The notes under the pieces are model-generated. The model was not told where the DNA came from. It saw only the letters and a program-made list of their open reading frames with translations, and made no database searches. Shown here one piece after another: positions 1,918 to 14,625 of a stretch of 14,723 nt of DNA (its first letter is position 1; each line of letters begins with the position of its first letter). Source of the DNA: Chloroflexota bacterium. Lineage in GTDB: Bacteria; Chloroflexota; DTOL01; DAOUCN01. The position numbers and the translations under genes are program-made. Location: assembly GCA_034431995.1 (NCBI GenBank), contig DAOUCN010000211.1, forward strand, positions 1 through 14,723, in the 5' to 3' direction.

Positions 1918-3999
1918 CTACGCCTCATTGAAGAACTTCTCGCCACAGTTCTTGCAGTACTTGGTGCCCACAGGCGACTCCACGCCACACTTGCGGCAGA
2001 CAACCACGCGCGTCGGCCCTTGGCCGCCTCCGCCTTCGCCGCCCGACACCGTCTGCGCGCCGCCGGGCGTGACGATGACGGTGGGAGCGCTGCGGTCGCG
2101 GGCAAAGGCGGTGGCCGTGTCCCGCTGCGAGGCCATAGCCTCCCGATGCATGCGCTCTATCGTCTGAATGGCGTCGAGCAGGATCTTCGTTTGCTCGTCC
2201 TTCGATGCTTTGGTCACCTCCAGCACGCGCTCCAGCAGAGCCGTCTGCTGTTCGGCAGGCAGGCTCCGCAGAGTCGCCAGGGCCCGCGCGGCTTCTGGGG
2301 ACCTCTCGGCGGCCTCGGCCAGGATCTGCTCCGCCGACATACCCTTCCGTATCTCCATCTGCCGCAGGTTGACGATCAGTTGGGCGCGCTGCGGGTCGCT
2401 TTCCGCGATCACTACCTCGGCTGGGGCCCCTGCCAACGCCCGAATGCGTTCCATGTTCTGCCGGTGTTGCTCGGCTTCTTCCCTCAGTCGTCGCTCCAGG
2501 GCGAGCTCGTCGCGTTCTGCCTCGATCAGCATTTCCTCACGCTGCACCTTGAGCTTGCGGGCATCCATCAGCTCCAATGCCCGCACGCCGAGCTGGACGT
2601 CCAACCAGTCCTGCTCGCGCTCGATGGCATCAATCTCTGCCTGCGTTTTCGCCTCTGTCAGTCGGTGCTGCAACTCGATCTGTCTTGCCTCGATCTCGGT
2701 CTTCTTGCGCTCGAGAGTCTGGATGCGCTCCTCATTGATCTGGGCCCGCAGCTCCATCTCCCGTCGTTTGAGGCGCAGCTCCAGCAACTCGTTTTCGCCT
2801 TCCAGCTCCATGCGGTCGAGCTCTTTCTGGCGTTCGATCTCCAGCTTGCGCACCAGGTAGCGTCGCTGCAGCTCGTGGTCTTCGCGCTCTTCAGCAAAGC
2901 TGCGCTTGAGATCCTCAAACTCCTTATCGGAGATCAGTCTTGCCCTGTCCTGTTGCCGTAGGAATGCCTCCAGCTGGTCTTCCGAGCGGATCTCATCCAT
3001 CCTGTCCGAAAGCACAGCCGCCCGCATCCTGGCCCAAACCGCCGCTCGCCGCTCGTACTGCTCGACCTTCGCCGTCTCTTCAGCGATGGCCTGGATCTCC
3101 CGCTCGTTGAGAACATCCGCCAGCCGCTTCCGGCCAGACAGATCCGCTTCCTCGCGGGTGATCTGCACGAAGTAGTCTTCCTTCACCTTGCGCACCGCGT
3201 CCCAGCGCTCGTGGCGGAAGTTGAGGGTGCTGACGCGCTCGAAGGTGAGCCCCAGGCTCTTGAAGGTCTCCCGCAGATGGGCTTCGATGAAGGTGGCGAG
3301 CTCATCCTTGATAGCCAGATTGCTGCTCAGCTCGGCCACGGAGTGACGGGCAACGGCCTCGGCGGCAGCATTCTCAATCTCGGGCTTGAGGTACTCCGCC
3401 AACATGCTGCGGCTCACCGTTCGCTGCCCCTTCATCATGTTGACCAGGAAGAGGACGGCGTTGTTGATACGGGTGACCAGACGGCAGTCCAAGGTCATGG
3501 CCAGCGGGTCACTCGTATAGAGGCCGGAGATGGGAAACTCCAACACGACATCCCCCACGTCCACGAGGATGGCGGTTACAGTCTTGGCATGCCCCAGCAG
3601 GGGGACGTGGGAGAACGCAGTGTCCATGGTGTAGGGCCCGGGAGGCAGCTCGCCGGCTTCGTTGCGACCGTCCACCAGCAAGATGGCGCGCGTGCCTGCT
3701 TCCACGATCAGTTCCTTGCGGAAGAAGCCGGGGACGTCGTCCACCTCGATGCGGGCAGCAAAGTCATCGGGGCTTTTGGCCCAGCGATGACCCGACATGG
3801 CCGGCGCGACGGCGCCTGAGAGTTGTTTGCCGCATGCCGGGCAGAAGGTCGCATCTCCCGACACGGGCGCGCCACAGTGCGGGCAGGTACGCTGACCGGT
3901 ACCGGTTGGCTTGCCGCACTGAGGGCAGAAGCTGTAGTCTTTCTCCAGTTGGGTGCCACAATGGGGGCATTTCGCCTTGCCGATGCCAAAGATATTCAT
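1918..3999 (-). CDS. Protein with an N-terminal double zinc ribbon, an SPFH/Band-7 (Band_7_1-like) domain, a long flotillin-like coiled coil and a C-terminal zinc ribbon.
   Basis: The 693-aa ORF has CPHCG-x10-CPQCG and CPHCG-x10-CPACG motifs at aa 11-57. An FFRKELIVEAGTRAILLVDGRNEAGELPPGPYTMD... block, typical of Band_7_1-type SPFH domains, follows. About 280 aa of E/R/L-rich heptad coiled coil come next (ELQRRYLVRKLEIERQKELDRMELEGENELLELRLKRREMELRAQ...). The C-terminus ends with CRKCG-x10-CKNCG. The ATG at 3997-3999 is preceded by AAAAGGGG, and it lies 4 nt after the stop of the upstream gene. Confidence 0.85.
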   Translation of the reverse strand: MNIFGIGKAKCPHCGTQLEKDYSFCPQCGKPTGTGQRTCPHCGAPVSGDATFCPACGKQLSGAVAPAMSGHRWAKSPDDFAARIEVDDVPGFFRKELIVEAGTRAILLVDGRNEAGELPPGPYTMDTAFSHVPLLGHAKTVTAILVDVGDVVLEFPISGLYTSDPLAMTLDCRLVTRINNAVLFLVNMMKGQRTVSRSMLAEYLKPEIENAAAEAVARHSVAELSSNLAIKDELATFIEAHLRETFKSLGLTFERVSTLNFRHERWDAVRKVKEDYFVQITREEADLSGRKRLADVLNEREIQAIAEETAKVEQYERRAAVWARMRAAVLSDRMDEIRSEDQLEAFLRQQDRARLISDKEFEDLKRSFAEEREDHELQRRYLVRKLEIERQKELDRMELEGENELLELRLKRREMELRAQINEERIQTLERKKTEIEARQIELQHRLTEAKTQAEIDAIEREQDWLDVQLGVRALELMDARKLKVQREEMLIEAERDELALERRLREEAEQHRQNMERIRALAGAPAEVVIAESDPQRAQLIVNLRQMEIRKGMSAEQILAEAAERSPEAARALATLRSLPAEQQTALLERVLEVTKASKDEQTKILLDAIQTIERMHREAMASQRDTATAFARDRSAPTVIVTPGGAQTVSGGEGGGGQGPTRVVVCRKCGVESPVGTKYCKNCGEKFFNEA

Positions 4000-4003
4000 G
4001 GTC

Positions 4004-5680
4004 TCACGCCCCTTTTAGAAGTGCATTCCGCTTGATGATCATGTTGCGCAGGTCCTGGAGGGCGATCTCCAGCTTGCGCGCTTGAACCTCCACGTCGCCG
4101 GGCATATCCTCGACCACTCTGCGGTACATGGTCTGGCTGGTGTCTGCAGCGTCCTGGGCCTGCTGCAGGAGGGCGTCGTTCAGGTCGAGAATGCGGCGCA
4201 GGTCATCGAGATTGACCTGCTTGCGGGCCAAAAGGGTTGATTGGGCGTAGGTGCTGGCGCGCAGCTCGTCCTGCAGATCGGGGACGGCCTTGGCCAGTGA
4301 GCGCAATGCCGTCGCCAGGTTCTGTAGCGGGCTGCGGAAGGCCCGCGTCCAGGCTTCCTCCAGGTTGGATCTCACTCGCCCCAGGTGACCAGCCACCTCA
4401 GCGTTGACCATCTGCATGGCCGCCAGGCGCCGGGCCGGGCTGAGGCGGTCCTCCTCAGCACGGGCCAGGTTCTCGCGCCGGCGTGCCCGTGCCTTCCCCT
4501 CGTACCAGAAGCTCCAGACGAAGGCGATCACCGCCAGGACGATGCCAACCACACAGGTGATGATCTGCGGCAGGCGGGGGTCGGCGAAGAGCTGTGGCAT
4601 CACGGTATAGGCCAAGGTCGTGCCCAGCACAATAATGCTCCCCACAGCCCGCAGGATGTTGACCCAGCGGCGCAACTCCTCGATGACGGCGTCGCGCTTC
4701 TCGTCTTTTGGCTCCTTGTACCCGGCCTTCTTGAGCATCTCCTCAAAGCGGCCAAGCAGTTGCTCTTGCTGGCTGGCCAGCTTCTTGTCCAGGGCCTTCA
4801 CCAGTTGGTCTACGGCCTTCCCCACTTCAGGTGGCGTAGGCTTTCGCTCTTCGGCCAGCGGTTTCTTCTCCCCTGCCACCGGCTTGGGCTCCTCGGCAGG
4901 GGGCGGGCCCGCCATCTCCCGCCTGACCTCCGCTAGTTCGTCCTGGCGGAGAGCATCGCGTAGTCCGTACTCGTGCTCGATCTGCCGCAGGGTGTCCTGG
5001 AACTCCCGCTCGGTGCGCGCCGCCTCCAGGCGTGCTCTCACCTCGGCCTTCTGCAGATCGTTGCGCAGGCGGTGGATGGCCTCGACCCGGCGCACGGCTT
5101 CCTCCTGGGTGACGAAGGAAGGGCGTCCGGCCTCGAGCAGGGCAAGCCCCGCCGATTCCAGATAGGCGCGTGCTGGCCCATGGATCGCAGCTCCTATCTG
5201 CTGGGCAACCGTCTCGCTGCCGCACAGATCGCCAGCCACGAACTGACGAGCGGCGGCAGCCAGAGGAGCCGCGATACTGGACGCCAGGCGCCCCGCCAAC
5301 TCGCCGACCGTGAGGTAGGTGCGGCTCTCGTCGAGAGCCTGGAAAAGCCGGACGGGATCGCTCGCTTGCACGCGCACGAGCAAGTTGGCGACCAGCGCTT
5401 GCTTGTCGCCGCTGAAGACGCCGCTCACCTCCGGAACGAGGTATGCGGGTCTTGTGTCCACTAGGCCGATGTCGTCGGGCAGGCCGCCCCACGCCCAGCC
5501 GACCCGATGGCGCCCAGGCCCTAGGACGGTGGCCTGCCCCCTGCGTACCACGATGCCCTGCTGGCCCGGTCCCACGTCCAGCGTCTTAGTGATGACGCCG
5601 GGCAGGTTCTCCGGGTGGACGCGCCGCACCAGGACCTCCGTGCCCTGGCCGTCGGCGGGTGACTGCGTGTCGTTCATCAT
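4004..5680 (-). CDS. Divergent SPFH/Band-7-like coiled-coil protein with an internal hydrophobic hairpin (membrane anchor).
   Basis: The 558-aa ORF has a strong ribosome-binding site: AGGAGGAAACAC (reverse complement of 5681-5692) immediately before the ATG at 5678-5680. The N-terminal region (GQQGIVVRRGQATVLGPGRHRVGWAWGGLPDDIGLVDTRPAYLV) follows the same G..a.vvr.G....L.PG.H pattern as the SPFH domain of the downstream gene. Two hydrophobic segments lie at aa ~344-362 and 371-392 (nt ~4505-4651), flanked by helical/coiled-coil regions. The stop TGA is at 4004-4006. Confidence 0.75.
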   Translation of the reverse strand: MMNDTQSPADGQGTEVLVRRVHPENLPGVITKTLDVGPGQQGIVVRRGQATVLGPGRHRVGWAWGGLPDDIGLVDTRPAYLVPEVSGVFSGDKQALVANLLVRVQASDPVRLFQALDESRTYLTVGELAGRLASSIAAPLAAAARQFVAGDLCGSETVAQQIGAAIHGPARAYLESAGLALLEAGRPSFVTQEEAVRRVEAIHRLRNDLQKAEVRARLEAARTEREFQDTLRQIEHEYGLRDALRQDELAEVRREMAGPPPAEEPKPVAGEKKPLAEERKPTPPEVGKAVDQLVKALDKKLASQQEQLLGRFEEMLKKAGYKEPKDEKRDAVIEELRRWVNILRAVGSIIVLGTTLAYTVMPQLFADPRLPQIITCVVGIVLAVIAFVWSFWYEGKARARRRENLARAEEDRLSPARRLAAMQMVNAEVAGHLGRVRSNLEEAWTRAFRSPLQNLATALRSLAKAVPDLQDELRASTYAQSTLLARKQVNLDDLRRILDLNDALLQQAQDAADTSQTMYRRVVEDMPGDVEVQARKLEIALQDLRNMIIKRNALLKGA

Positions 5681-5710: not shown

Positions 5711-7753
5711 CTACTGGATGCGCCAGGTCGTGCCGTCGAAGACCGTGGTCTTGCCCGGCGCGACCTCCACGTGGAAGACGGTGCGATCGCTCACCTCGAT
5801 CGCGTACCTTCCCGCCGTTAGGTCCACTATCCTGCGCCCCGTGTTATCTGTGTATCCGCTGGCTACCCCCCAGTCCTTTGCAGGTTTGCCTGCGACGTCC
5901 GTCTTCTGAGCGTAGATCCTGACGTAACGGTCAACATCCGCCGTACCATCTGACCGCTTGAGCGCAACAATGATGCGGCCCAGATTGATGACACGTTTGG
6001 TGACCTGTCCGGGCTGAATCGGGACGTTGTGTTCGCCCTCGACATCATAGGCTGTGCCCCACGGGTAGCCCAGCAGGTCCGCTCCGACGATGTACCTGCA
6101 CGGCGCCAGGTCGAAAGATACCGCACCCGTGTTGTCGGTGTAGCCGCTGGCGACTCGGCCGGCAGATACCCAATTGCCGGCGATGTCCTGCTGCTGGAGG
6201 TGCACCGTGACCCATTGATCCTGGATGACCGAGCCATCGGCACGTGTGAAGCCGACCTGCAGTCTGCCGATGGTGAGCACGAGCCGCGTGGTCTTGCCAA
6301 CGAGCACTTGCACGCTGGATTTGCCCTTGGTGTCCACGGCATCGCCCCAGTTGCACCCGGTGACGTCAACCGCCACGATATACTCGCCGGGATTCACGGC
6401 GAATGAAGCCATGCCCGTGTTGTCGGTGCTGCCTGCTGCCACCCGCTCAGCCCGCACCCAGCGGCCCTGAATATCCTGCTTCTGACCATAGACTTCGATC
6501 CACTTGTCTTTCCATACCATGCCCTCAGCCCCACGCACGACGACTTGCAGCGTTCCCTTTCCGGCAGGGGCGGCTGACGAATCAATGGTGGTGATCTCAT
6601 AGGCCGGCCGAATGGCACCAGTGTCCACCACGGGCGAAGCGGTGAAGGTGGGCACAGGGGTGGCTGTGGGCGGTACGGGTGTCGCCGTCGGCGGCACCGG
6701 TCTGGGCGTCGGGGTAACCACCGTTGGCGTAGGCGTCCTCTGCACCGCCGCGACAGGTGTCGGTGTGACCGTCGCTCTCCCGCCGGTGCCCCTGTAGGCG
6801 ACGACGGCATACACGGCCAGGCACACGACCACGAGCAGCGCCGCTATCCGGACCCAAGGCGGCTGCGGCTCACCCGGCCCCTTTGTCCCTTCGCGACTGA
6901 TGCGCTCCACAGGCTGGAGTGGCGCGCCCGGCTGCAACGAGGCGCGCAGCACGTTGGCAAACTCATGCGCTGAGGCGTAGCGCTTGGTTGGATCCTTGGC
7001 CAGCGCCCGCAGCACCGCCGTCTCCACGCTGGCTGGCACCTGGACGCCGAAGCTGGTCATGGGCGGCGGCGCTTGATGGACGTGCTGGTAGAGGATGGCC
7101 ATGGGGTCCTCACCCTTGAAGGGCGTGCTCCCTGTGATCGCCTCGTAGGCCACGATGCCCAGGGAGTAGATATCCGACCGGGCATCGGCCGGGTTGCCCT
7201 GGGCCCGTTCCGGGGCGACGTACTGCGCCGTGCCGCTCAGAGTGAGGCCCAGGCTGGATGCGGAGCTGCCCTTGACGGCTCGCGCCAGGCCGAAATCGCC
7301 GATCTTGGCCCGCCCGCTGTCGTCCAGCAGGATATTCGACGGCTTGACGTCGCGGTGTACCAGGCCCGCCTCGTGCGCCGCGTGGAGACCGTGGGCCACA
7401 TGGCTGATGAGGGCGATAGCCTCCTCAGGCGGCAAACGATGCTTCTGGAGCAGGACATCGGCGAGGGAGCGGGGCAGGTACTCCATGACGATGAAATAGC
7501 TGCCCTGATCCTCGCCTATCTCATGGACGGTGACCACATTAGGGTGGTTGAGGCGGGCGATCTTCTGCGCCTCGCTCAAGAAGGCCGCCTTGAATGTCGG
7601 GTCCGTAAGGAGAACAGGGTGCAGCACCTTCAGGGCGACGATGCGCTCCAGCATGGTGTCCCGGCACTTCAGCACCACGCCGAAGCGTCCCTGCCCGCTC
7701 TCCTCGATGACCTCGTATTTTCCGAACCGCCGGGGTTGTGCCGTCTGGTCCAT
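5711..7753 (-). CDS. Receptor-type Hanks Ser/Thr protein kinase: cytoplasmic kinase domain, one transmembrane helix, a Pro/Thr-rich linker and three extracellular ~95-aa beta-sandwich repeats.
   Basis: Kinase motifs are present: the G-loop GQGRFG, the VAIK-type IVALKVL, the catalytic HRDVKPSNILL, DFGLARA and YVAPE. The transmembrane helix is WVRIAALLVVVCLAVYAVVAY. The linker is TPTPVAAVQRTPTPTVVTPTPRPVPPTATPVPPTATPVPT. Three repeats each contain a G(S/Y)TDNTG...(F)xL.PGxY.V motif, which resembles CarboxypepD_reg/SdrD-B-like folds. I place the start at the ATG at 7751-7753, which follows GGGAGGGG (reverse complement of 7758-7766) with a 4-nt spacer. The ORF track's 7771 start is a GTG six codons upstream and lacks a ribosome-binding site. 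Confidence 0.88.
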   Translation of the reverse strand: MDQTAQPRRFGKYEVIEESGQGRFGVVLKCRDTMLERIVALKVLHPVLLTDPTFKAAFLSEAQKIARLNHPNVVTVHEIGEDQGSYFIVMEYLPRSLADVLLQKHRLPPEEAIALISHVAHGLHAAHEAGLVHRDVKPSNILLDDSGRAKIGDFGLARAVKGSSASSLGLTLSGTAQYVAPERAQGNPADARSDIYSLGIVAYEAITGSTPFKGEDPMAILYQHVHQAPPPMTSFGVQVPASVETAVLRALAKDPTKRYASAHEFANVLRASLQPGAPLQPVERISREGTKGPGEPQPPWVRIAALLVVVCLAVYAVVAYRGTGGRATVTPTPVAAVQRTPTPTVVTPTPRPVPPTATPVPPTATPVPTFTASPVVDTGAIRPAYEITTIDSSAAPAGKGTLQVVVRGAEGMVWKDKWIEVYGQKQDIQGRWVRAERVAAGSTDNTGMASFAVNPGEYIVAVDVTGCNWGDAVDTKGKSSVQVLVGKTTRLVLTIGRLQVGFTRADGSVIQDQWVTVHLQQQDIAGNWVSAGRVASGYTDNTGAVSFDLAPCRYIVGADLLGYPWGTAYDVEGEHNVPIQPGQVTKRVINLGRIIVALKRSDGTADVDRYVRIYAQKTDVAGKPAKDWGVASGYTDNTGRRIVDLTAGRYAIEVSDRTVFHVEVAPGKTTVFDGTTWRIQ
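5714..6560 (-). repeat. Three diverged ~285-bp coding repeats; these are the extracellular beta-sandwich repeats of the receptor kinase.
   Basis: At the protein level the repeats share DIxGxWV...SGYTDNTG..SF.L.PxxYIV; the DNA is diverged. At the DNA level compare gtgttatctgtgtatccgctggc (5841-63), gtgttgtcggtgtagccgctggc (6121-43) and gtgttgtcggtgctgcctgctgc (6411-33). Confidence 0.75.
6630..6780 (-). repeat. Low-complexity Pro/Thr-rich linker-coding segment with internal short DNA repeats.
   Basis: ggcggtacgggtgtcgccgtcggcggcaccggtctgggcgtcggggt-type repeats encode PTATPVPPTATPVPT on the minus strand, immediately extracellular to the transmembrane helix. Confidence 0.8.
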
Positions 7754-7757
7754 AACA

Positions 7758-7766
7758 CCCCTCCCT
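7758..7766 (-). promoter_or_regulatory. Shine-Dalgarno sequence (AGGGAGGGG) for the receptor kinase gene.
   Basis: The reverse complement of cccctccct is AGGGAGGGG, with 4 nt before the ATG at 7751-7753. Confidence 0.7.
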
Positions 7767-7991
7767 ATCACGATGCATCCCCGTTCGTGAGAGCGCTTGG
7801 CAGCCGACGGGGGCAGAGTCTCCGCCGGAGGCTGGAGTTAGCCTCGGCCAGCTTGATGACTGCAGCTCGCAGGCTTGCTCGGCCTGCCGTGGCGCCCGGC
7901 CAGGCAGGCCCGAGCGGCTGGCTTACGGCTGCCGGATGCAGCTCCCCATGGGAGGTGCTATGTGTCGCGAAACCCAACGCTGCCCGCCGCC

Positions 7992-10900
7992 TCACGACCC
8001 GCGACCCCCTGGCAGTATTCCCCACACCATGATCGTACCGTCAGTGGACCCCGAGGCGAGGGTTTTGCCATCGGGGGCGAAGGCCACGTAGTGCACAGTG
8101 GCTGTATGCCCGCTGAGGGTGCGCAGCTCCTTGCCGCTGGCCACGTCCCAGAGTCTCACGGTGGCGTCATACGACCCTGAGGCCAGGGTTTTGCCATCGG
8201 GGGCAAAGACCACGCTGTGCAGATAGCTCGTGTGCCCGCTGAGGGTGCGCAGTTCCTTGCCGCTGGCCACGTCCCAGAGTCGCACGGTCTTGTCATACGA
8301 CCCCGAGGCGAGGGTTCTGCCATCGGGGGCGAAGGCCACGCTGTACACATAGCTCGTGTGCCCGCTGAGGGTGCCCACCAGGCTGCCGTCGCTCACCCGC
8401 CACAGGCGCACGGCGTTGTCATGCGACCCCGAGGCCAGGGTTTGCCCATCGGGCGAGAAGCAGACGCTACACACCGCCTTCATATCGCCGCCCGCGAAGA
8501 GCTGCTCGAGAATGCCAGGCCTAACAACACGCGCGCGCCAATCCTCGGCTGCCCGCCACAATCGCACAGTATTGTCCTCCGAACCCGAGGCGAGGGTTTT
8601 GCCATCGGGGGCGAAGGCCACGCTGTGCACATAGCTCGTGTGCCCGCTGAGGGTGCGCAGCTCCTTGCCCCTGGCCACGTCCCAGAGACGCAGGGTGTAG
8701 TCGTCGGACCCTGAGGCCAGGGTTTTGCCATCGGGGGCGAAGGCCACGCTGTACACATAGCTTGTGTGTCCGCTGAGGGTGCGCAGTTCGCGGCCCGTGG
8801 CCACGTCCCAGAGACGCAGGGTCTTGTCGTCGGACCCTGAGGCCAGGGTTTTGCCATCGGGGGCGAAGGCCACGCTGTGCACATAGCTCGTGTGCCCGCT
8901 GAGGGTGCGCAGCTCGCGGCCAGTGGCCACGTCCCAGAGCCTCACGGTCCTGTCGGACGACCCTGAGGCCAGGGTTTGGCCATCGGGGGCGAAGGCCACG
9001 CTCTGCAGATAGCTCGTGTGCCCGCTGAGGGTGCGCAGTTCCTTGCCGCTGGCCACGTCCCAGAGTCGCACGGTCTCGTCGGACGACGCTGAGGCCAGGG
9101 TTCTGCCATCGGGGGAGAAGGCCACGCTGATCACATAGCTCGTGTGCCCGCTGAGGGTGCGCAGCTCCTTGCCGCTGGCCGCGTCCCAGAGTCTCACCGT
9201 GTTGTCATGCGACGCGGAGGCCAGGGTTTTGCCATCGGGGGCGAAGGCGACACTGAACACACCGCCAGTGTGCTTCTTGAAGACATGCACTTCCTTCCCG
9301 CTGGCCGTTTCCCACAACCGGACTGTCTTATCATCTGCACCTGAGGCCAGGAGCCGCCCATCAGGGGAGAAAGCCACGCTCGTCAGTGCTGCCGGTGCCC
9401 AGATAAGAGTCACTTCTGTCATGGTCTGGGCATCGTAGACGCAGAGGCAGCCAGACTCGCAAGCAACGGCCAGCCATCGGCCGTCGGCCGACCACGTCAC
9501 TTGCTTGGGCGTGCCCTTGCCCAACCGTGCTATTGGCCCAACGTCAGCCCCGTTGTCTGGCACGATAATCGGGAGCAGCGATCGGCCCTTGGTCAGAATG
9601 CTTAGCTTCAATGGCGTCAAGCGAGGATCTCCGGGAGCCGCGCGCTCCAGTCTCCTCAACTCGGCCAGGGCTGCTGCGACATCGGCATCCAGCAAGGACG
9701 TCACTTTCGCATACTGGTGCTCCCTGGCTTGCTGCAGCTCTCGTTCTGCCGCCTGAGCCTCTTGGCGTAGGTCATGTAGCCCTGGATAGTCCCTCTGCAC
9801 CGTCTCTATCTCTGCCAGCAGTGTCAGGGCGAGACCGGGAAGTGTTCTCGCTACTGCCTTGGCCTGGGCAAATCGCTCTGCGAGGCGTCGTTGTTGTTCG
9901 GCCTGAGCCTTGTGGAGGAGGTCGCGTAGCCCTGGATAATCTTCCCGCTCTTTCCGAATTTGCGCTGCTATCTCTAGTGCCCGCGCCGGCTTGTTCTCTA
10001 CTACTTTCTCTGCCTCGGCAAAGAGGCCGGCCAAGCGCTGTTCGCGCTCTGCGGCCTGGGCCTGCTGCCGAAGCTCCGCGAGTCCCGGATAGTCGGCCTG
10101 TTCCTTCTCGATTTCCGCCAGCGCCTTCAGCGCCTCTGTTGGTTGATTGTCCAGTGCTTTCTCCGCCCGGGCAAACAGCGCGGCCAAGCGCTGTTCTCGC
10201 TCTGCGGCCTGGGCCTGCTGCCGAAGCTCCGCGAGTCCCGGATAGTCGGCCTGTTCCTTCTGGATGTCCGCCAGAGCCTTCAGCGCCTCAGTTGGTTGTG
10301 TGTGCAATGCCTGCTCCGCCTGGGCAAAGAGTGTCGCCAGGCGCCGCTCGCGTTCCCGCAGAGCCGCCTCGGCTTGCTGGCGGAGGTCCTGCAACCCCAC
10401 GTAATCCGCCTGCTCCCGCTCTATCTGCGCCAGTAGCTCCAGCGCGCGGGGTGGGTCGGTCTTTGCTGCGCGGGCGGCCTCACCGAACAGCTGCTTGAGG
10501 CGCTGCTCCCGGGCAGCTTGGGCCTTCTTCTGCGCGGCCTCGGCCTTTTGCCGCAGTTCTGCAAGCGCCGGGTAGTCCGGTTGCTCCTGTTCTATCTGCA
10601 TCACCAGCTCGAGTGCGCCACTCGGGTTATCCTGCACCAATCGCTCTGCCTCGACGAAGACTCTGGCCAGGCGGCGGTCACGCTCCCGTAGGGCTGAAAG
10701 GGCCTGCTGGCGTAGCTCCTGCAGCCCCGGATACGCCGGCTCCTCTTTCTCCAGCTCGGAGAGCGCCTGCAGCGTTTGAGCCGGTTTTCCCTCCACCGCT
10801 GCCTTTGCTTCGGCAAACATGCCAGCCAACCTCCGTTCTCGTTCTGCCGCCTGGGCCTGCTGCCGAAGCTCTGACAGGCCAGGATAGTCTCCCTGCTCCT

Positions 10901-12539
10901 TCTCGATTTCCGCCAGCACTGCCAGAGCTCGTGCCGGCTCCTTGCTGACTGCCTTCTCAGCCTCTGCGAACAAGGCCGCTAAGCGCTGGCTTAGAGCTTG
11001 TAGTGCCGTGTGGGCCCGCTGGCCAAGATCCAAGAGCCCCGCATAGTCCGTCTGCTCCTCCTGAATCTTGGCCACTAGCTCCAGGGCTCGTTTTGGGCTG
11101 GTTTGCACCGCCTGCTGCGCCTCGGCAAAGAGTCTCGCCAGGCGGCGCTCGCGTTCCCGTAGAGCCGCCTGGGCTTGATGGCGCAGGTCCTGCAACCCCA
11201 CGTAGTCCGGCTGCTCCCTCTCTATCTGCGCCAGTAGCTCCAACGCGCGCTCTGGTGCCTTCTCCACTGCTTTCTTCGCCTCGGCAAACCGCTGAGCAAG
11301 GTGGCGGTCTCGCTCCGCCACAGCCCGCTGTCGCAGGTCCTGTAGCCCGGGGTAGTCCTCTTGTTCTCTATGAATCTGCGCCAGGACTTCCAGCGCCCGT
11401 ATCGGGTCAGACTTGACTGCCAGCTCCGCATCGGCAAATAGCCTTGCCAGGCGTCGCTCTGTCTCCAATACCATTTCTGGAGTGAGGCGAGTTGGCTCGC
11501 TCTTCATTGTACGATCGGTCTGCGCCACTGCACTGACCGGCTGCTGCCCTTGTGGTTGCCCTCGCCCTTTTGCTTTCGGTCGCCGTGTGACACCCACCTG
11601 CCCGTGTGTTTGTGTGGTTGGCATGTGCAGCCTATCCGCCTCTTCCTGCTGTCTTGCTCCTGAACGGGCTATCTCCTTGCCACCGCCGCCCCGCACCTGC
11701 TCTTGGACCGCATTCGCTTCCTCTGGCAGGGTCATGAAAGCGTCCAGGACCTGGGCCAGCTCTTTCCCACTTTGTGGCCGCTGCGCTGGATCCTTGGCCA
11801 GCACCCGCGCAACCGCTGCCGCCAGTGGAGCGGGCACATCGGGCCGCACACTGTCCAGCGGTGGCGGCACTTCCGTCAGGTGCTTGCGCATCACGCCGGC
11901 TGGCGTCTTGCCAGGAAAGAGGGTGTGCCCCGCCAGCATCTCCCACAGGATCACGCCCACGGCGTAGACATCGCTGGCGGGGGTGGCCTCGGCTTCTTCC
12001 CAGATCTCCGGGGCGATGTAGCCGGGCGTGCCCACCATGCCGCCGGAGCCGGTGAGGCTGGCCCAGGCCAGGGCCTTGACCAACCCGAAGTCGGTGAGCA
12101 CCGCCCGGTCCTCATCGTCCACGATGATGTTCTGGGGCTTCACGTCCCGGTGCAGGAAGTCCCGTTGGTGGGCATAGCCCAGGGCCTCGGCCACTTGGCG
12201 GGCAATGCTCACCGCCCGTTCCACAGGCAAGGGGCCCTCAGCGATCATCTTATCCAGGCTGCGGCCGGGCAGGAACGTCATGTCAATGTAGGGCTGCCCC
12301 TGCTCTTCGCCCACCTTGTTGATGTGGACGATATTTGGGTGCTCCAGGTTGGCAGCCGCCTGCGCCTCGCGGACGAAGCGCTCCTGGGCTGCGGGATTGC
12401 TGAGCAAGCCCGCGTGCATGATCTTGAGCGCCACGATGCGATTTAGGGTCAGGTCACGAGCCTTGTACACCGTGGCGAAGGACCCGCTGTCAACCTTCTC
12501 GATGATCTCGTAGGGGCCGAAACGCTTGGTGTCTGTCAT
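7992..12539 (-). CDS. Giant cytoplasmic Hanks Ser/Thr kinase fused to 11 copies of a ~50-aa helical (TPR-like) repeat and about 12 WD40 repeats; PkwA-like architecture.
   Basis: The ORF encodes 1515 aa. The N-terminal kinase has GSFATVYKA, IVALKIM, HRDVKPQNIIV, TDFGLVKA and GTPGYIAPE. No hydrophobic transmembrane segment is present. Eleven copies of LFAEAEKAV..P..ALE.LA.IEKEQ.DYPGL.ELRQQAQAAERE.RLA follow at nt ~9960-11510. About twelve WD40 units with LSGHTSYVHSVAFAPDGKTLASGSDDKTLRLWDVATGRELRT follow at nt ~7995-9560. The start ATG at 12537-12539 overlaps the upstream stop as ATGA. Confidence 0.9.
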   Translation of the reverse strand: MTDTKRFGPYEIIEKVDSGSFATVYKARDLTLNRIVALKIMHAGLLSNPAAQERFVREAQAAANLEHPNIVHINKVGEEQGQPYIDMTFLPGRSLDKMIAEGPLPVERAVSIARQVAEALGYAHQRDFLHRDVKPQNIIVDDEDRAVLTDFGLVKALAWASLTGSGGMVGTPGYIAPEIWEEAEATPASDVYAVGVILWEMLAGHTLFPGKTPAGVMRKHLTEVPPPLDSVRPDVPAPLAAAVARVLAKDPAQRPQSGKELAQVLDAFMTLPEEANAVQEQVRGGGGKEIARSGARQQEEADRLHMPTTQTHGQVGVTRRPKAKGRGQPQGQQPVSAVAQTDRTMKSEPTRLTPEMVLETERRLARLFADAELAVKSDPIRALEVLAQIHREQEDYPGLQDLRQRAVAERDRHLAQRFAEAKKAVEKAPERALELLAQIEREQPDYVGLQDLRHQAQAALRERERRLARLFAEAQQAVQTSPKRALELVAKIQEEQTDYAGLLDLGQRAHTALQALSQRLAALFAEAEKAVSKEPARALAVLAEIEKEQGDYPGLSELRQQAQAAERERRLAGMFAEAKAAVEGKPAQTLQALSELEKEEPAYPGLQELRQQALSALRERDRRLARVFVEAERLVQDNPSGALELVMQIEQEQPDYPALAELRQKAEAAQKKAQAAREQRLKQLFGEAARAAKTDPPRALELLAQIEREQADYVGLQDLRQQAEAALRERERRLATLFAQAEQALHTQPTEALKALADIQKEQADYPGLAELRQQAQAAEREQRLAALFARAEKALDNQPTEALKALAEIEKEQADYPGLAELRQQAQAAEREQRLAGLFAEAEKVVENKPARALEIAAQIRKEREDYPGLRDLLHKAQAEQQRRLAERFAQAKAVARTLPGLALTLLAEIETVQRDYPGLHDLRQEAQAAERELQQAREHQYAKVTSLLDADVAAALAELRRLERAAPGDPRLTPLKLSILTKGRSLLPIIVPDNGADVGPIARLGKGTPKQVTWSADGRWLAVACESGCLCVYDAQTMTEVTLIWAPAALTSVAFSPDGRLLASGADDKTVRLWETASGKEVHVFKKHTGGVFSVAFAPDGKTLASASHDNTVRLWDAASGKELRTLSGHTSYVISVAFSPDGRTLASASSDETVRLWDVASGKELRTLSGHTSYLQSVAFAPDGQTLASGSSDRTVRLWDVATGRELRTLSGHTSYVHSVAFAPDGKTLASGSDDKTLRLWDVATGRELRTLSGHTSYVYSVAFAPDGKTLASGSDDYTLRLWDVARGKELRTLSGHTSYVHSVAFAPDGKTLASGSEDNTVRLWRAAEDWRARVVRPGILEQLFAGGDMKAVCSVCFSPDGQTLASGSHDNAVRLWRVSDGSLVGTLSGHTSYVYSVAFAPDGRTLASGSYDKTVRLWDVASGKELRTLSGHTSYLHSVVFAPDGKTLASGSYDATVRLWDVASGKELRTLSGHTATVHYVAFAPDGKTLASGSTDGTIMVWGILPGGRGS
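8040..9310 (-). repeat. Near-identical 126-bp tandem DNA repeats; these are the in-frame WD40 blade units of the kinase gene.
   Basis: Blocks such as ccctgaggccagggttttgccatcgggggcgaaggccacgctgtgcacatagctcgtgtgcccgctgagggtgcgcagctccttgccgctggccacgtcccagag recur at 126-bp spacing (for example 8066 vs 8192) with only a few substitutions. Confidence 0.9.
9960..11470 (-). repeat. Tandem repeats with a period of about 150-153 bp; these are the in-frame ~50-aa helical repeats of the kinase gene.
   Basis: For example 10020-10140 and 10170-10290 are almost identical (gccaagcgctgttc.cgctctgcggcctgggcctgctgccgaagctccgcgagtcccggatagtcggcctgttccttct.gat.tccgccag...). Further copies occur at ~10840-10930, ~11140-11230 and elsewhere. 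Confidence 0.85.
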
Positions 12540-13915
12540 GCTCGCAGTCCCTCCGGCAAGGCCAGGCTGAGCACGTCATGTGCCAGACGGGCCAGTTCTG
12601 CTATATCATCCTTGCGCTGTAGCGCCAGCAGGCGCAGGTGCGCCAGGCGCGAATCCACGTTCAGGCGGGGCGAGTGGACGACCACCCGCTGCAAGTCGCT
12701 GCTAGAGAGGCGGTCAAGGCGGTAGCTCACATTGGCAGCGATGGCCACGGCATAGGGCAGGCACAAAGGGCCGAGGCGCACCTCCAGGTCCCGCAGCAGG
12801 AGATAGCCCACCACGTAGGGCAGGGGCTGGCCAAAGGCCTTCTCGACGCCGTGGTTCACTGCCTCTGGGCACTGGTGCAGGGTCAGCACGGCGGTATGAA
12901 GCTGTTCCGAGGTGGGATGCTCCTCAATGAACAGGACCTCCAGGGCGGTCCAGATGCGCAGCACGGCGTCCATTTCCTCGTGGGAGCGTGCCTGCTTCTG
13001 CAGCTCGACCAGGGGCGGCCAGACCGCGATCAGCGTATGGCGCACCAGAGGCCATGGCCGGCCCTGTTCGGCGGCCAGACAGCCCATCAAGTGATGCTCG
13101 ACCCAGGTGGCCCAGCCCTCCTCGAGCAAGAGCGATGATCCGTAGAGCACGGCATTCTTCTCGGCGAGCAGTATGCCTTCAGGTGTGTCGGCCGGTCGAA
13201 AGTCGAAACGCCGCGCCAGCTCGTAACGCCAGGCGCCCAATCGCTTCTTCTCTTCCCCTAGGGCCGTACCCTCGGTCACAAAGCCGTGTCCCATCTTCTC
13301 ATGGACGGCCGTGGCCAGGATGGCGGGGAGGACGGCCGGGTCGCGCAGAGCCGCCTCCGCGTCCGGGGCGCGGCCATGAGCGAAGAGCCAGCCGTTGAGA
13401 TAGCAGCCGCGACCGGGCAGAAACATCCCGTACCTTCCACCGCCCTTGCTCGCCTGCGCCTCCGCCTGCGCCATCATCTCCTCCAGATAGGCCATTTTTG
13501 TTGCTTCCGAGACGTCCATCATCTCCACCTGCGGCCAGAAGAACTCCTCCAGTGTTGTGCAGTAGACGGTGGGCAGGCTGAAGAGCGCCAGTCTGGGCAG
13601 ATAGCGGGCCAAATCGAACCGCTCAGCCATGACGTCATCCAGGTGGCGAAGGGCGGGATCGTGTGCGAGGGCGATGTGCGCTGAGGCAGGCGCAACCGCG
13701 CCAGCCGCCTGCTGGGGGAGGCGAGCGGCAAGGGCCGACGCGCTCCGCCTCTGATGAGCCTCAATCTGAGACTGGATGCGCGCTTCGTACTCGCTCAGCC
13801 GCTGCTCCAGGCTGGCGTCTGAGAAGGATGGCGCGCCTCGTGTGCCCAGGCGCCGTCGCATCAGGGCATCCAGACGTTCCTCGAATCGTCGTTCCATGTC
13901 TTCGAGTGTAGACAT
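12536..13915 (-). CDS. Hypothetical protein of about 460 aa, function unknown; its stop is coupled to the kinase start.
   Basis: I place the start at the ATG at 13913-15, which begins MSTLEDMERRFEE. It is preceded by the purine-rich GAGGAAAGGAGAAAA (reverse complement of 13921-13935). The ORF track's longer N-terminal extension to 14098 lacks a ribosome-binding site and overlaps the upstream gene. The protein is mainly predicted helical and contains an HEKMGHGF segment (HExxxH spacing, not the canonical HExxH). I recognise no confident homology. The stop TGA at 12536-38 overlaps the ATG of the kinase gene. Confidence 0.6.
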   Translation of the reverse strand: MSTLEDMERRFEERLDALMRRRLGTRGAPSFSDASLEQRLSEYEARIQSQIEAHQRRSASALAARLPQQAAGAVAPASAHIALAHDPALRHLDDVMAERFDLARYLPRLALFSLPTVYCTTLEEFFWPQVEMMDVSEATKMAYLEEMMAQAEAQASKGGGRYGMFLPGRGCYLNGWLFAHGRAPDAEAALRDPAVLPAILATAVHEKMGHGFVTEGTALGEEKKRLGAWRYELARRFDFRPADTPEGILLAEKNAVLYGSSLLLEEGWATWVEHHLMGCLAAEQGRPWPLVRHTLIAVWPPLVELQKQARSHEEMDAVLRIWTALEVLFIEEHPTSEQLHTAVLTLHQCPEAVNHGVEKAFGQPLPYVVGYLLLRDLEVRLGPLCLPYAVAIAANVSYRLDRLSSSDLQRVVVHSPRLNVDSRLAHLRLLALQRKDDIAELARLAHDVLSLALPEGLRA

Positions 13916-13920
13916 TCCGG

Positions 13921-13935
13921 TTTTCTCCTTTCCTC
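13921..13935 (-). promoter_or_regulatory. Purine-rich Shine-Dalgarno region (GAGGAAAGGAGAAAA) for the hypothetical gene.
   Basis: The reverse complement of ttttctcctttcctc is GAGGAAAGGAGAAAA. It lies 5 nt upstream of the ATG at 13913-13915 and supports the internal start over the longer ORF-track start. Confidence 0.6.
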
Positions 13936-13968
13936 TGGGCTCATCCCTGTCCTCTGGGCTCATCCCTG
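13931..13968. repeat. Perfect 2 x 19-bp tandem direct repeat spanning the stop codon of the zinc-ribbon gene and the leader of the next gene.
   Basis: tcctctgggctcatccctg lies at 13931-13949 and again at 13950-13968. On the minus strand this reads CAGGGATGAGCCCAGAGGA twice. The upstream copy contains the CAG GGA TGA end of the upstream gene, and the downstream copy abuts the AAGGAGAAAA ribosome-binding site. Confidence 0.9.
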
Positions 13969-14625
13969 AATGGGCTGGCCGCAAGTCGGACAATGGCGCG
14001 CGGTCGTGCCCTCTGGCAGCGCGTTGAGGCAATGGGGGCAGAGACGGGCGTGGCATGATGGGCACTGCGCCTCCCCCGGCTTCAGCGCCACACCGCACAT
14101 CGGGCAGGCACGGCCCTGCTCCTTGCTCGTATCCGCTGGGGCAATGAGGCGTCTACCGCCTGCAACCAGTGTGTCCGTGACATCGCCAGCGGGAATGCCC
14201 GGCGCCGGTGTCGCCGGCACACCTGGCCCGCCGCCCACGCTGCTGCGCACGAGCACAGAGCCTTCAATGTTGGTGGTCTGCGCTCCTGGCGCCACGTACT
14301 GCTTGGCGTTGATGATGACGACCTGGGGCCGCTGTTCCCGGGCGCGCCAGACAGCCAGGACCGGCACCGAGCTTTCGACGGTTCGCTGCGTGGTGTTGCC
14401 GGCCTCGTCCTGGTAGCTCACCTCGATATCCAGGGGTGTCGCATCCCCGGCTTTGTGGGGAGCCAGACGGAACTCCAGCATCGCCTGCTGACGGGGTGCA
14501 AGCCGACGATGCTTTCTCTCCAGATCGCCCTCGTAGTCGCCGCGAACCACCACCCTGATCTCTCTCGCGACGCCAAATCCCTCATTCTGCAGAGTGACCC
14601 GCAGCCGGTTGAATTCCCTGACCAC
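13960..14625 (-). CDS. Protein with an N-terminal beta-rich domain and a C-terminal double zinc ribbon.
   Basis: The 221-aa ORF begins at a GTG at 14623-25. The frame stays open upstream to a stop at 14689-91, but no ATG lies in between. The C-terminal 49 aa (nt ~13963-14109) carry CPMCG-x10-CPSC and CPHC-x14-CPTCG motifs. The N-terminal two-thirds alternate hydrophobic and polar residues in a beta-strand-like pattern (VTLQNEGFGVAREIRVVVRGDY..., LDIEVSYQDEAGNTTQRTV). The start codon choice is uncertain. Confidence 0.6.
   Translation of the reverse strand: MVREFNRLRVTLQNEGFGVAREIRVVVRGDYEGDLERKHRRLAPRQQAMLEFRLAPHKAGDATPLDIEVSYQDEAGNTTQRTVESSVPVLAVWRAREQRPQVVIINAKQYVAPGAQTTNIEGSVLVRSSVGGGPGVPATPAPGIPAGDVTDTLVAGGRRLIAPADTSKEQGRACPMCGVALKPGEAQCPSCHARLCPHCLNALPEGTTARHCPTCGQPIQG

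What the first reader, a model, noticed from the sequence alone, without database searches (positions are those of the whole stretch)
9960..11510. Eleven tandem copies of an unclassified ~50-aa helical repeat between the kinase and WD40 domains
The repeat LFAEAEKAV(x3)P(x2)ALEALAEIEKEQADYPGLAELRQQAQAAEREQRLA has a period of about 50-51 aa (150-153 bp). That is not the 34-aa TPR, 38-aa PPR or 47-aa Sel1 period. The copies are extremely similar at DNA level, and adjacent copies are nearly identical. A conserved DYPGL turn and a conserved Pro suggest a helix-turn-helix-turn unit. It may be a new alpha-solenoid family acting as a long spacer or ligand-binding array between the catalytic and sensor modules.
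Basis: seen in the sequence. Interest (0 to 1): 0.6.

Follow-up and report, generated by a model that had tools for sequence, protein, structure and literature searches.

The report
Rare 51-residue TPR-like helical repeat rod
A bacterial signalling protein carries eleven tandem copies of a rare, unnamed helical module about 51 residues long between its kinase and its WD40 propellers; the module is a stretched relative of the common TPR hairpin and most likely forms a long connecting rod.

Summary
The repeat is real. One 1515-aa ORF (7992-12539, minus strand) encodes a Hanks-type kinase, a roughly 100-aa low-complexity linker, 11 helical units with periods of 50-57 aa, a degenerate 12th unit, and about 12 WD40 blades. 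The coordinates given are shifted: the units span 9726-11441. The claim of near-identical DNA copies holds only for units 8/9 (90%). The mean identity is about 62%.

No Pfam, NCBIfam, PADLOC or PDB sequence model matches the array. A unit profile finds only 36 proteins among 1.84 billion cluster representatives, and this array is the largest. AlphaFold2 predicts each unit as a long helix (26-38 aa) plus a short helix (14 aa). A four-unit piece scores pLDDT 96.5 and pTM 0.78.

I read it as a TPR-derived hairpin plus a third helix that continues into the next unit, forming a connector or scaffold rod. The same module occurs in 1-6 copies between effector domains (kinase, TIR, CHAT, caspase) and either a TM segment with outer domains or a WD40/TPR/propeller domain. 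It is a new variant of a known kind, of moderate interest.

The parts
7992..12539 (-). Whole gene: 1515-aa Ser/Thr kinase, linker, 11(+1) helical units, WD40 propellers
   Evidence: ORF list and translation. The exact protein is a singleton cluster in the 15-billion-protein collection.
11772..12512 (-). Hanks-type protein kinase domain (aa 10-256). VALK, HRDVKPQN, DFG and APE motifs are all present.
   Evidence: Pfam Pkinase E=4.8e-47. Motifs read from the translation.
11478..11771 (-). Low-complexity G/Q/R/P/T-rich linker (aa ~257-354)
   Evidence: Translation. No family hit.
11442..11477 (-). Helical lead-in (aa 355-366, ...ETERRLAR), the C-terminal half of a 'long helix' that precedes unit 1
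   Evidence: AF2 helix H2-24 of the array model.
11292..11441 (-). Unit 1 (aa 367-416, 50 aa)
   Evidence: 68 bits.
11133..11291 (-). Unit 2 (aa 417-469, 53 aa)
   Evidence: 77 bits. 81% DNA identity to unit 7.
10974..11132 (-). Unit 3 (aa 470-522, 53 aa)
   Evidence: 67 bits.
10821..10973 (-). Unit 4 (aa 523-573, 51 aa)
   Evidence: 75 bits.
10662..10820 (-). Unit 5 (aa 574-626, 53 aa)
   Evidence: 66 bits.
10491..10661 (-). Unit 6 (aa 627-683, 57 aa; longest connector)
   Evidence: 68 bits.
10332..10490 (-). Unit 7 (aa 684-736, 53 aa)
   Evidence: 76 bits.
10179..10331 (-). Unit 8 (aa 737-787, 51 aa)
   Evidence: 69 bits. 90% DNA identity to unit 9. Lies in the Tandem Repeats Finder row 10004-10328.
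10026..10178 (-). Unit 9 (aa 788-838, 51 aa)
   Evidence: 71 bits.
9876..10025 (-). Unit 10 (aa 839-888, 50 aa)
   Evidence: 64 bits.
9726..9875 (-). Unit 11 (aa 889-938, 50 aa)
   Evidence: 59 bits.
9570..9725 (-). Degenerate 12th unit or cap (aa 939-990, ...YAKVTSLLDADVAAALAELRRLERAAPGDPRLTPLKLSILTKG). It is conserved in the Anaerolineae homologue L005.
   Evidence: AF2 helices at aa 921-967 and 974-987 with lower pLDDT. The PGDPR junction is shared with L005.
8016..9515 (-). About 12 WD40 blades (aa ~1009-1508), probably two propellers. The 126-bp DNA period is highly homogeneous.
   Evidence: Pfam WD40 E=6.4e-147 with 12 stretches. Tandem Repeats Finder shows 83-88% matches.

Best explanation
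The array is a genuine tandem amplification of a rare TPR-derived helical module.

Each unit has a conserved core of about 47 aa made of three parts:
- helix A (RLAxLFAEAxxAV), ending in a loop with an invariant Pro;
- helix B (xxALExLAEIEKEQ), ending in the DYPGL turn;
- a third helix (xELRQQAQAA).

The third helix runs without a break, through a connector of variable length (3-10 aa here, up to about 16 in homologues), into helix A of the next unit. The chain therefore alternates one long helix (26-38 aa) with one short helix (14 aa).

Shown:
- the repeat itself, its rarity, and the absence of any curated sequence model;
- the confident helix pattern, and confident relative placement of four units;
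- TPR proteins as the nearest folds.

Inferred:
- Each A-B-A' set forms a small three-helix bundle, in effect one TPR plus its capping helix.
- Successive bundles are strung end to end on the continuous long helices, somewhat like spectrin repeats. The result would be a long, largely rigid rod.
- The rod acts as a mechanical connector or scaffold. It holds the active kinase, on its flexible linker, at a set distance from the double WD40 platform.
- It may offer a repetitive charged surface for docking partners.
- Copy number, changed by tandem duplication, would tune its length.
For: Repeat and anatomy:
- Eleven units are delimited and each scores 59-77 bits against the unit profile.
- AF2 of the whole array gives mean pLDDT 84.9, with long and short helices alternating throughout.
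- AF2 of a four-unit piece gives pLDDT 96.5 and pTM 0.78.

Link to TPR:
- The 50 highest-ranked Foldseek hits for the array are TPR or closely related helical-repeat (HAT-type) proteins, such as Ctr9, P58IPK, IFT-A, Ski3, APC/C and OGT.
- The best Foldseek TM-score is BamD at 0.37.
- Pfam TPR models match the degenerate units of P0016 and P0017 in the helix-B/Pro32 register. Three of the 11 window units, and most homologue units, carry Pro at the position equivalent to TPR P32.

Autonomous module used as a connector:
- The same unit occurs once, just before a TM helix, in P0004, P0025, P0026, P0031 and P0042.
- It occurs twice, between the kinase domain and a C-terminal TM region, in P0011 and P0018.
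- It occurs twice between TIR and a beta-propeller in P0012 and P0014.
- It occurs two or three times between CHAT and TPRs in P0002 and P0003.
- It occurs 6 and at least 5.5 times between kinase and WD40 in L001 and L005.

Connector variability: every indel between units falls in the middle of the long helix.

Amplification: units 8/9 are 90% identical and 2/7 are 81% identical in DNA. Units 1 and 3 of L005 are 99% identical.
Against: - No model coordinates were available to me. The rise, twist and total length of the rod, and the three-helix-bundle packing, are inferred from helix lengths, hydrophobic phases and partial fold matches. They were not measured.
- The whole-array model has pTM 0.39 and a lower-confidence stretch over units 4-6 (pLDDT 65-75).
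- A profile-profile comparison with canonical TPRs gave no match (probability 0.35%). The TPR ancestry therefore rests on fold hits and intermediate sequences.
- The alignments fed to AF2 were shallow (7-9 rows). Idealised Ala/Glu/Leu/Arg-rich helices can receive high pLDDT regardless.
- There are no functional data. A spacer role is an argument from domain architecture.
Confidence: 0.6

Rival explanations
1. A ligand- or peptide-binding TPR-type solenoid. The units stack side by side into a superhelix, and its concave groove binds a partner protein or substrate of the kinase, as in classical TPR domains.
For: - The nearest folds are TPR proteins.
- The most conserved segment, EQxDYPGLxELRQ, contains several conserved polar residues that could form a binding site.
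- P0002 places the units directly upstream of ten canonical TPRs.
Against: - The period is 50-57 aa, with indels of 1-7 residues inside a helix, which would break a uniform groove.
- The module works as a single copy next to membranes in several proteins.
- Apart from the conserved positions, the unit is mostly Ala/Glu/Gln/Arg/Lys, and I recognised no binding motif.
Confidence: 0.2
2. An oligomerisation module. The long amphipathic helices pair between chains, as a dimeric or trimeric coiled coil or helical bundle, bringing kinase domains together for trans-autophosphorylation. This would resemble the juxtamembrane dimerisation helices of receptor kinases.
For: - One or two units sit just upstream of a TM helix in receptor-type kinases (P0011, P0018, P0025, P0031, P0042).
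- The long helices carry a/d-like hydrophobic stripes.
- One weak Leu_zip hit was seen (E=0.015).
Against: - The monomer prediction is already well packed (pTM 0.78, pLDDT 96.5).
- The invariant Pro and the DYPGL turn break the chain into hairpins every roughly 50 aa. That is not a long coiled coil.
- No multimer prediction could be run.
Confidence: 0.15
3. No defined tertiary structure. The region is a low-complexity charged helical region, of single alpha-helix or compositionally biased coiled-coil type, whose apparent repeat is a by-product of recent DNA duplication.
For: - The composition is biased: A 20%, L 14%, E 13%, Q 12%, R 10%.
- One pair of units is 90% identical in DNA.
Against: - Most units are only 53-75% identical in DNA, yet they keep the same Pro, DYPGL, F2, A5, A16 and L-pattern.
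- The same unit is conserved in unrelated architectures and in homologues of 35-50% identity.
- AF2 confidence is very high.
Confidence: 0.05

Closest known systems
Tetratricopeptide repeat (TPR; Pfam clan CL0020, e.g. TPR_1/2/14/16/19)
   Same: - It is an antiparallel helix A / helix B hairpin.
- The helix-B pattern A-x3-L-x2-I-x4-(P) corresponds to TPR A20/24/27/P32.
- Pfam TPR models recognise degenerate relatives (P0016, P0017).
   Different: - The period is 50-57 aa rather than 34.
- Helix A is fused to a preceding helix, giving 26-38-aa helices.
- No TPR model reaches significance on the window array (best E=0.17).
- hhalign against canonical TPRs gives probability 0.35%.
- Four units do not superpose on any TPR solenoid (TM ≤ 0.37).
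- The helix-A signature (W4, L7, G8, Y11) is not kept.
BamD/YfiO-type and Sel1-like (SLR) long TPR variants
   Same: - These are TPR-like hairpins with lengthened helices or loops and periods above 34 aa.
- BamD gives the best TM-score to the four-unit model (0.33-0.37).
   Different: - SLR periods are 36-44 aa (general knowledge).
- Neither Sel1 nor YfiO Pfam models hit the array.
- TM 0.37 with rmsd about 11 Å is not a fold-level match.
Spectrin-type rods (three-helix bundles joined by continuous helices)
   Same: - The inferred topology is similar: the last helix of one unit continues into the first helix of the next, giving an extended rod of stacked small bundles.
- Length variation is confined to the connecting helix.
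   Different: - The spectrin period is about 106 aa with three long helices (general knowledge). Here there are about 51 aa, with bundle helices of about 13-14 aa.
- There is no sequence or significant fold match. The resemblance is an inference, not a measured superposition.
Designed helical repeat proteins (DHR, CTPR)
   Same: - The units are idealised two-helix repeats rich in A/E/L/R.
   Different: - The matches are weak (TM 0.18).
- This is a natural protein with unequal helix lengths.
PkwA-type bacterial Ser/Thr kinase-WD40 proteins (Thermomonospora curvata PkwA; PMC6113231, PMC5587647)
   Same: - The overall architecture matches: an N-terminal Hanks kinase and a C-terminal highly repetitive WD40 propeller.
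   Different: - I did not examine what lies between the kinase and WD40 domains of PkwA, so I cannot say whether it has a comparable module.
- In this work the 11-unit helical array was matched only by the relatives L001 and L005.

Membership tests
TPR (Pfam clan CL0020) | Repeat period of about 34 residues | tested here: not met
   Periods are 50, 53, 53, 51, 53, 57, 53, 51, 51, 50 and 50 aa.
TPR (Pfam clan CL0020) | Significant match to a TPR profile HMM, above the gathering score | tested here: not met
   The best hit on the window array or single units is TPR_7 at E=0.17-0.21 and 12 bits, against a cut-off of 27.9. hhalign against 10 canonical TPRs gives probability 0.35%.
TPR (Pfam clan CL0020) | Antiparallel helix-turn-helix hairpin | tested here: met
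TPR (Pfam clan CL0020) | Consensus small/large residues W4-L7-G8-Y11-A20-F24-A27-P32 | tested here: inconclusive
   The helix-B half fits: A16/L20/I23 and Pro at position 28 in 3 of 11 units and in most homologues. This register is bridged by TPR_2/TPR_19 hits on P0016 and P0017. The helix-A half does not fit without a shift.
TPR (Pfam clan CL0020) | Side-by-side stacking into a regular right-handed superhelix | tested here: inconclusive
   No TPR solenoid superposes on the four-unit model (TM ≤ 0.37, rmsd ≥ 10.8 Å).
Sel1-like repeat (PF08238) | Match to the Sel1 profile and a 36-44 aa period | tested here: not met
   No Sel1 hit at E ≤ 10. The period is 50-57 aa.
Bacterial Hanks-type Ser/Thr kinase with WD40 (PkwA-like architecture) | Pkinase domain with catalytic motifs, plus C-terminal WD40 repeats in one polypeptide | tested here: met
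   Pkinase E=4.8e-47 at aa 10-256. WD40 E=6.4e-147 with 12 stretches. VALK, HRD, DFG and APE motifs are in the translation.
PD-T4-6 kinase defence system (PADLOC) | Match beyond the generic kinase domain | tested here: not met
   The best-scoring stretch of every PD-T4-6, mad6 and MkoA hit lies at the kinase end of the protein (start aa 1-18, end aa 204-332). The array has no PADLOC hit.
PF27421 TP_0855_helical | Significant profile match | not testable with these tools
   There is only a 'faint' precomputed hit on homologue P0001. The model is absent from the local Pfam copy.

The most novel reading that the evidence does not exclude
The unit is an autonomous three-helix 'TPR-plus-cap' mini-domain, so far without a name. 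It concatenates through continuous helices into a spectrin-like molecular ruler. It appears to be used almost only in signalling or conflict proteins, and the one carrier whose source organism I could name is an Anaerolineae (Chloroflexota) MAG. In those proteins it couples an N-terminal effector (kinase, TIR, CHAT, caspase) to a membrane anchor or to a WD40/TPR/propeller domain, and copy number (1 to 11) sets the reach. On this reading it would be a distinct architectural class of helical repeat, not just another TPR.
Probability: 0.3. Interest if true: 0.55.

Novelty: new variant of a known kind. Interest (0 to 1): 0.4.

Why it matters
If the rod model holds, this is a compact natural building block for rigid spacers of tunable length: about 51 aa per step, highly soluble, and able to fold on its own.

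It would also give a name and a model to a linker region that is currently unannotated in a set of bacterial kinase, TIR, CHAT and caspase proteins. That domain repertoire matches the conflict and signalling systems described in multicellular bacteria (PMC10907252, PMC7159879).

It would not change how we understand kinase signalling. Its value is mainly for annotation, as a candidate new Pfam family within or beside the TPR clan, and for protein engineering.

Tried and rejected
Searches that gave nothing:
- Pfam, NCBIfam, PADLOC and PDB-sequence searches of the array, of two units and of one unit all gave no significant hit.
- hhalign of the unit profile against canonical TPRs from P0002 gave no match.
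- The same tool with the array protein found nothing in genome contigs.
- The look-up of encoding contigs for the window protein found nothing on record.
- The afdb50 fold library was unavailable.
- Literature searches found no description of this repeat.

Searches with limited yield:
- A degenerate DNA pattern for EQxDYPGLx[D/E]L gave 11 genome hits. Ten were chance matches and one was real (L005, Anaerolineae MAG).
- PF27421, precomputed on P0001, turned out to be a 'faint' TP_0855_helical hit and is uninformative.

Ideas rejected:
- A DNA-level tandem repeat or assembly artefact: the copies are mostly 53-75% identical.
- A coding role for the plus-strand shadow ORFs across the region (9611-10498, 10613-10948, 11003-11416): they lie antisense to a gene with clear domain matches.
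- Membership of the PD-T4-6 defence system: the matches cover only the kinase domain.
Full report
**What is there**

The window is a complete 14,723-bp NCBI contig. Its longest ORF runs on the minus strand from 12539 to 7992 and encodes 1515 aa.
- Pfam finds a protein kinase domain at aa 10-256 (E=4.8e-47).
- Pfam finds 12 WD40 stretches between aa ~1009 and 1508 (E=6.4e-147).
- The kinase has the VALK, HRDVKPQN, DFG and APE motifs, so it looks catalytically competent.
- Between the two domains lie a roughly 100-aa G/Q/R/P/T-rich linker and the repeat region.

**Checking the observation**

- Anchoring on [D/A]Y[P/V/A][G/A]L gives eleven units, at aa 367-938. Their lengths are 50, 53, 53, 51, 53, 57, 53, 51, 51, 50 and 50 aa. 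In window coordinates they span 9726-11441.
- A profile built from the units scores each of the eleven at 59-77 bits.
- A degenerate twelfth unit follows at aa 939-990. Its PGDPR turn is conserved in a homologue.
- The count, the period, the consensus and the position between kinase and WD40 are therefore correct.
- The stated coordinates (9960-11510) omit unit 11 and part of unit 10, about 1.5 units in all.
- The DNA claim is wrong. Only units 8/9 (90%) and 2/7 (81%) are close. Other pairs are 53-75% identical. Adjacent pairs (mean 63%) are no closer than non-adjacent pairs (mean 62%).
- Tandem Repeats Finder sees only 2.1 copies, at 10004-10328. The WD40 blades of the same gene are much more homogeneous in DNA (126-bp period, 83-88% matches).

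**Is it a known family by sequence?**

- No Pfam, NCBIfam or PADLOC model, and no PDB chain sequence, matches the array, two units or one unit. The best Pfam hit is TPR_7 at E=0.17 and 12 bits, against a cut-off of 27.9.
- A profile-profile comparison of the unit alignment with ten canonical TPRs taken from homologue P0002 gave probability 0.35%.
- The 'PF27421' precomputed on homologue P0001 is a faint TP_0855_helical hit and is not meaningful.

**How common is it?**

- A word-indexed search with the array found four proteins.
- An exhaustive HMMER search with the 53-position unit profile covered 1.84 billion cluster representatives. It found 36 proteins at E ≤ 1e-3, six at E ≤ 1e-10, and three at E ≤ 1e-30.
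- The window protein (692 bits, 11 units) is by far the largest array. The next largest have six units (P0001) and three units (P0002).

**Where else the unit occurs**

- Kinase fragment, six units, then WD40 after a frameshift (L001/P0001).
- At least 5.5 units, the same degenerate cap, then WD40, in an Anaerolineae MAG. This locus (L005) is 50% identical to the window protein over aa 678-1510, and its contig ends inside the array.
- CHAT, two or three units, then ten TPRs (P0002, P0003).
- TIR, a middle region, two units, then a beta-propeller (P0012, P0014).
- Kinase, two units, then a TM region further downstream (P0011, P0018).
- Kinase, one unit, TM, SH3, then FGE-sulfatase (P0025).
- One unit, TM, then FGE-sulfatase or Ig-like domains (P0026, P0004).
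- Kinase, TPR-like repeats, one unit, TM, then WD40 (P0042).

The unit therefore works alone as well as in arrays. Among the carriers that have an N-terminal signalling or effector domain, it always lies between that domain and a membrane anchor or a repeat platform. P0004 and P0026 have no effector domain, and there the unit lies N-terminal to the TM helix.

This domain repertoire matches that described for conflict and signalling systems of multicellular bacteria (PMC10907252, PMC7159879). Those papers do not describe this module.

**Predicted structure**

- AF2 on aa 354-1005 with a shallow alignment gave mean pLDDT 84.9 and pTM 0.39. Long helices (26-38 aa) alternate regularly with short helices (14 aa), and turns fall at the invariant Pro and at DYPG.
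- A four-unit piece (aa 714-918) gave pLDDT 96.5 and pTM 0.78. The relative placement of neighbouring units is therefore predicted confidently.
- Foldseek of the whole array against the PDB lists only TPR or closely related helical-repeat proteins among its 50 highest-ranked matches, at E=4e-5 to 1e-2, with TM about 0.1.
- Foldseek of the four-unit model gives no hit at E ≤ 1e-3. The best TM-score is BamD at 0.37.
- Locally, then, the unit is TPR-like. No solved structure reproduces the multi-unit arrangement.

**The link to TPR**

- Pfam TPR_2, TPR_14, TPR_16 and TPR_19 recognise the degenerate units of P0016 (caspase plus four units) and P0017 (kinase).
- Combining those matches with the unit-profile matches maps unit A16, L20, I23 and position 28 onto TPR A20, 24, 27 and P32.
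- Position 28 is Pro in three window units and in most homologue units.
- Helix A does not keep the TPR W4/L7/G8/Y11 signature.
- I conclude that the unit is TPR-derived but lies outside every current model.

**How it most likely works**

- All indels between units, here and in homologues, fall in the middle of the long helix (27, 28, 30 or 34 aa; up to about 12 more in P0002).
- The conserved core is helix A, helix B and a third helix (A'). A' continues through a variable helical connector into the next helix A.
- Hydrophobic-moment analysis shows two separate hydrophobic stripes on each long helix. Their relative azimuth depends on connector length: about 20-60° for 30-mers, 105-125° for 27-mers, and 225-250° for 28-mers.
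- This suggests stacked A-B-A' mini-bundles joined end to end on continuous helices. That is a spectrin-like rod with irregular twist, not a uniform TPR superhelix.
- Together with the architecture census, I favour a rigid connector or scaffold that separates the kinase from the WD40 platform, with length set by copy number.
- Recent duplications show that the array is still evolving by tandem amplification: units 8/9 here, and units 1/3 of L005 at 99%.
- The rivals are a TPR-type binding groove, an oligomerisation module, and unstructured low-complexity helix. All are less well supported, but the first two are not excluded.

**Context in the window**

All large ORFs are on the minus strand. 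From the high-coordinate end they are:
- a zinc-ribbon protein;
- a 520-aa unknown protein whose end overlaps the kinase start by 4 nt;
- this gene;
- a second kinase with a predicted TM segment and a repeated C-terminal region;
- a 558-aa unknown protein;
- a zinc-ribbon/SPFH/coiled-coil protein;
- a small membrane protein;
- a zinc-ribbon/FGE-sulfatase protein.

PADLOC PD-T4-6 hits cover only the generic kinase domain.

**Verdict**

The repeat is real and rare, and no current sequence model covers it. It is best described as a new, stretched variant of the TPR-like helical hairpin rather than a categorically new fold. Interest is moderate, at 0.4.

Noticed in passing
window 8047-9381: The WD40 blades of the same gene are highly repetitive in DNA (126-bp period, 83-88% matches, up to 6.5 copies per Tandem Repeats Finder row). 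They are far more homogeneous than the helical units and fit the 'highly repetitive prokaryotic WD40' class (PMC5587647).
   Followed up: partly
L005 947-3712 (MAG Anaerolineae bacterium RSWS13, JAPWUW010000300.1): A homologue 50% identical over aa 678-1510, with at least 5.5 helical units, the same degenerate PGDPR cap, and WD40 repeats. Its units 1 and 3 are 99% identical in DNA, and the contig ends inside the array, so the true copy number is unknown. The assembly probably broke on the repeat.
   Followed up: partly
L001 12-3934 (ENA ERZ25039527 contig_53867): A kinase fragment, six units (P0001) and WD40 repeats lie in different frames (frame 3 then frame 2). This is either a frameshifted or mis-assembled copy of the same architecture, or a split gene. 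FGE-sulfatase and kinase fragments lie downstream.
   Followed up: partly
window 12536-12539: The upstream 520-aa ORF (12536-14098, no family match) overlaps the kinase start codon by 4 nt, which suggests translational coupling. Its function is unknown.
   Followed up: no
window 5711-7771: A second Hanks-type kinase lies immediately downstream. After the kinase domain it has a hydrophobic stretch that looks like a TM helix (read by eye; no TM predictor was run), a Pro/Thr-rich stretch, and three or four copies of a roughly 90-aa C-terminal repeat (…QDIxGxWVxAxRVAxGxTDNTG…) with no Pfam match.
   Followed up: no
window 22-1236, 1918-3999, 13960-14625: Three neighbouring genes carry double zinc-ribbon (DZR) domains. 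One is fused to an FGE-sulfatase domain, one to an SPFH/Band-7 domain with a long charged coiled-coil region, and one stands at the C-terminus of a 221-aa protein. FGE-sulfatase domains also occur in several carriers of the helical unit (P0025, P0026).
   Followed up: partly
window 803-912: A 51-bp tandem repeat (2.2 copies, 88% matches) inside the FGE-sulfatase gene encodes a duplicated AAEEEARRRAEEER charged segment.
   Followed up: no
window 4004-5680: A 558-aa protein with no Pfam match gives a weak PADLOC hit to LeoB (E=8e-5, aa 320-473). It looks like a membrane-associated coiled-coil protein.
   Followed up: no
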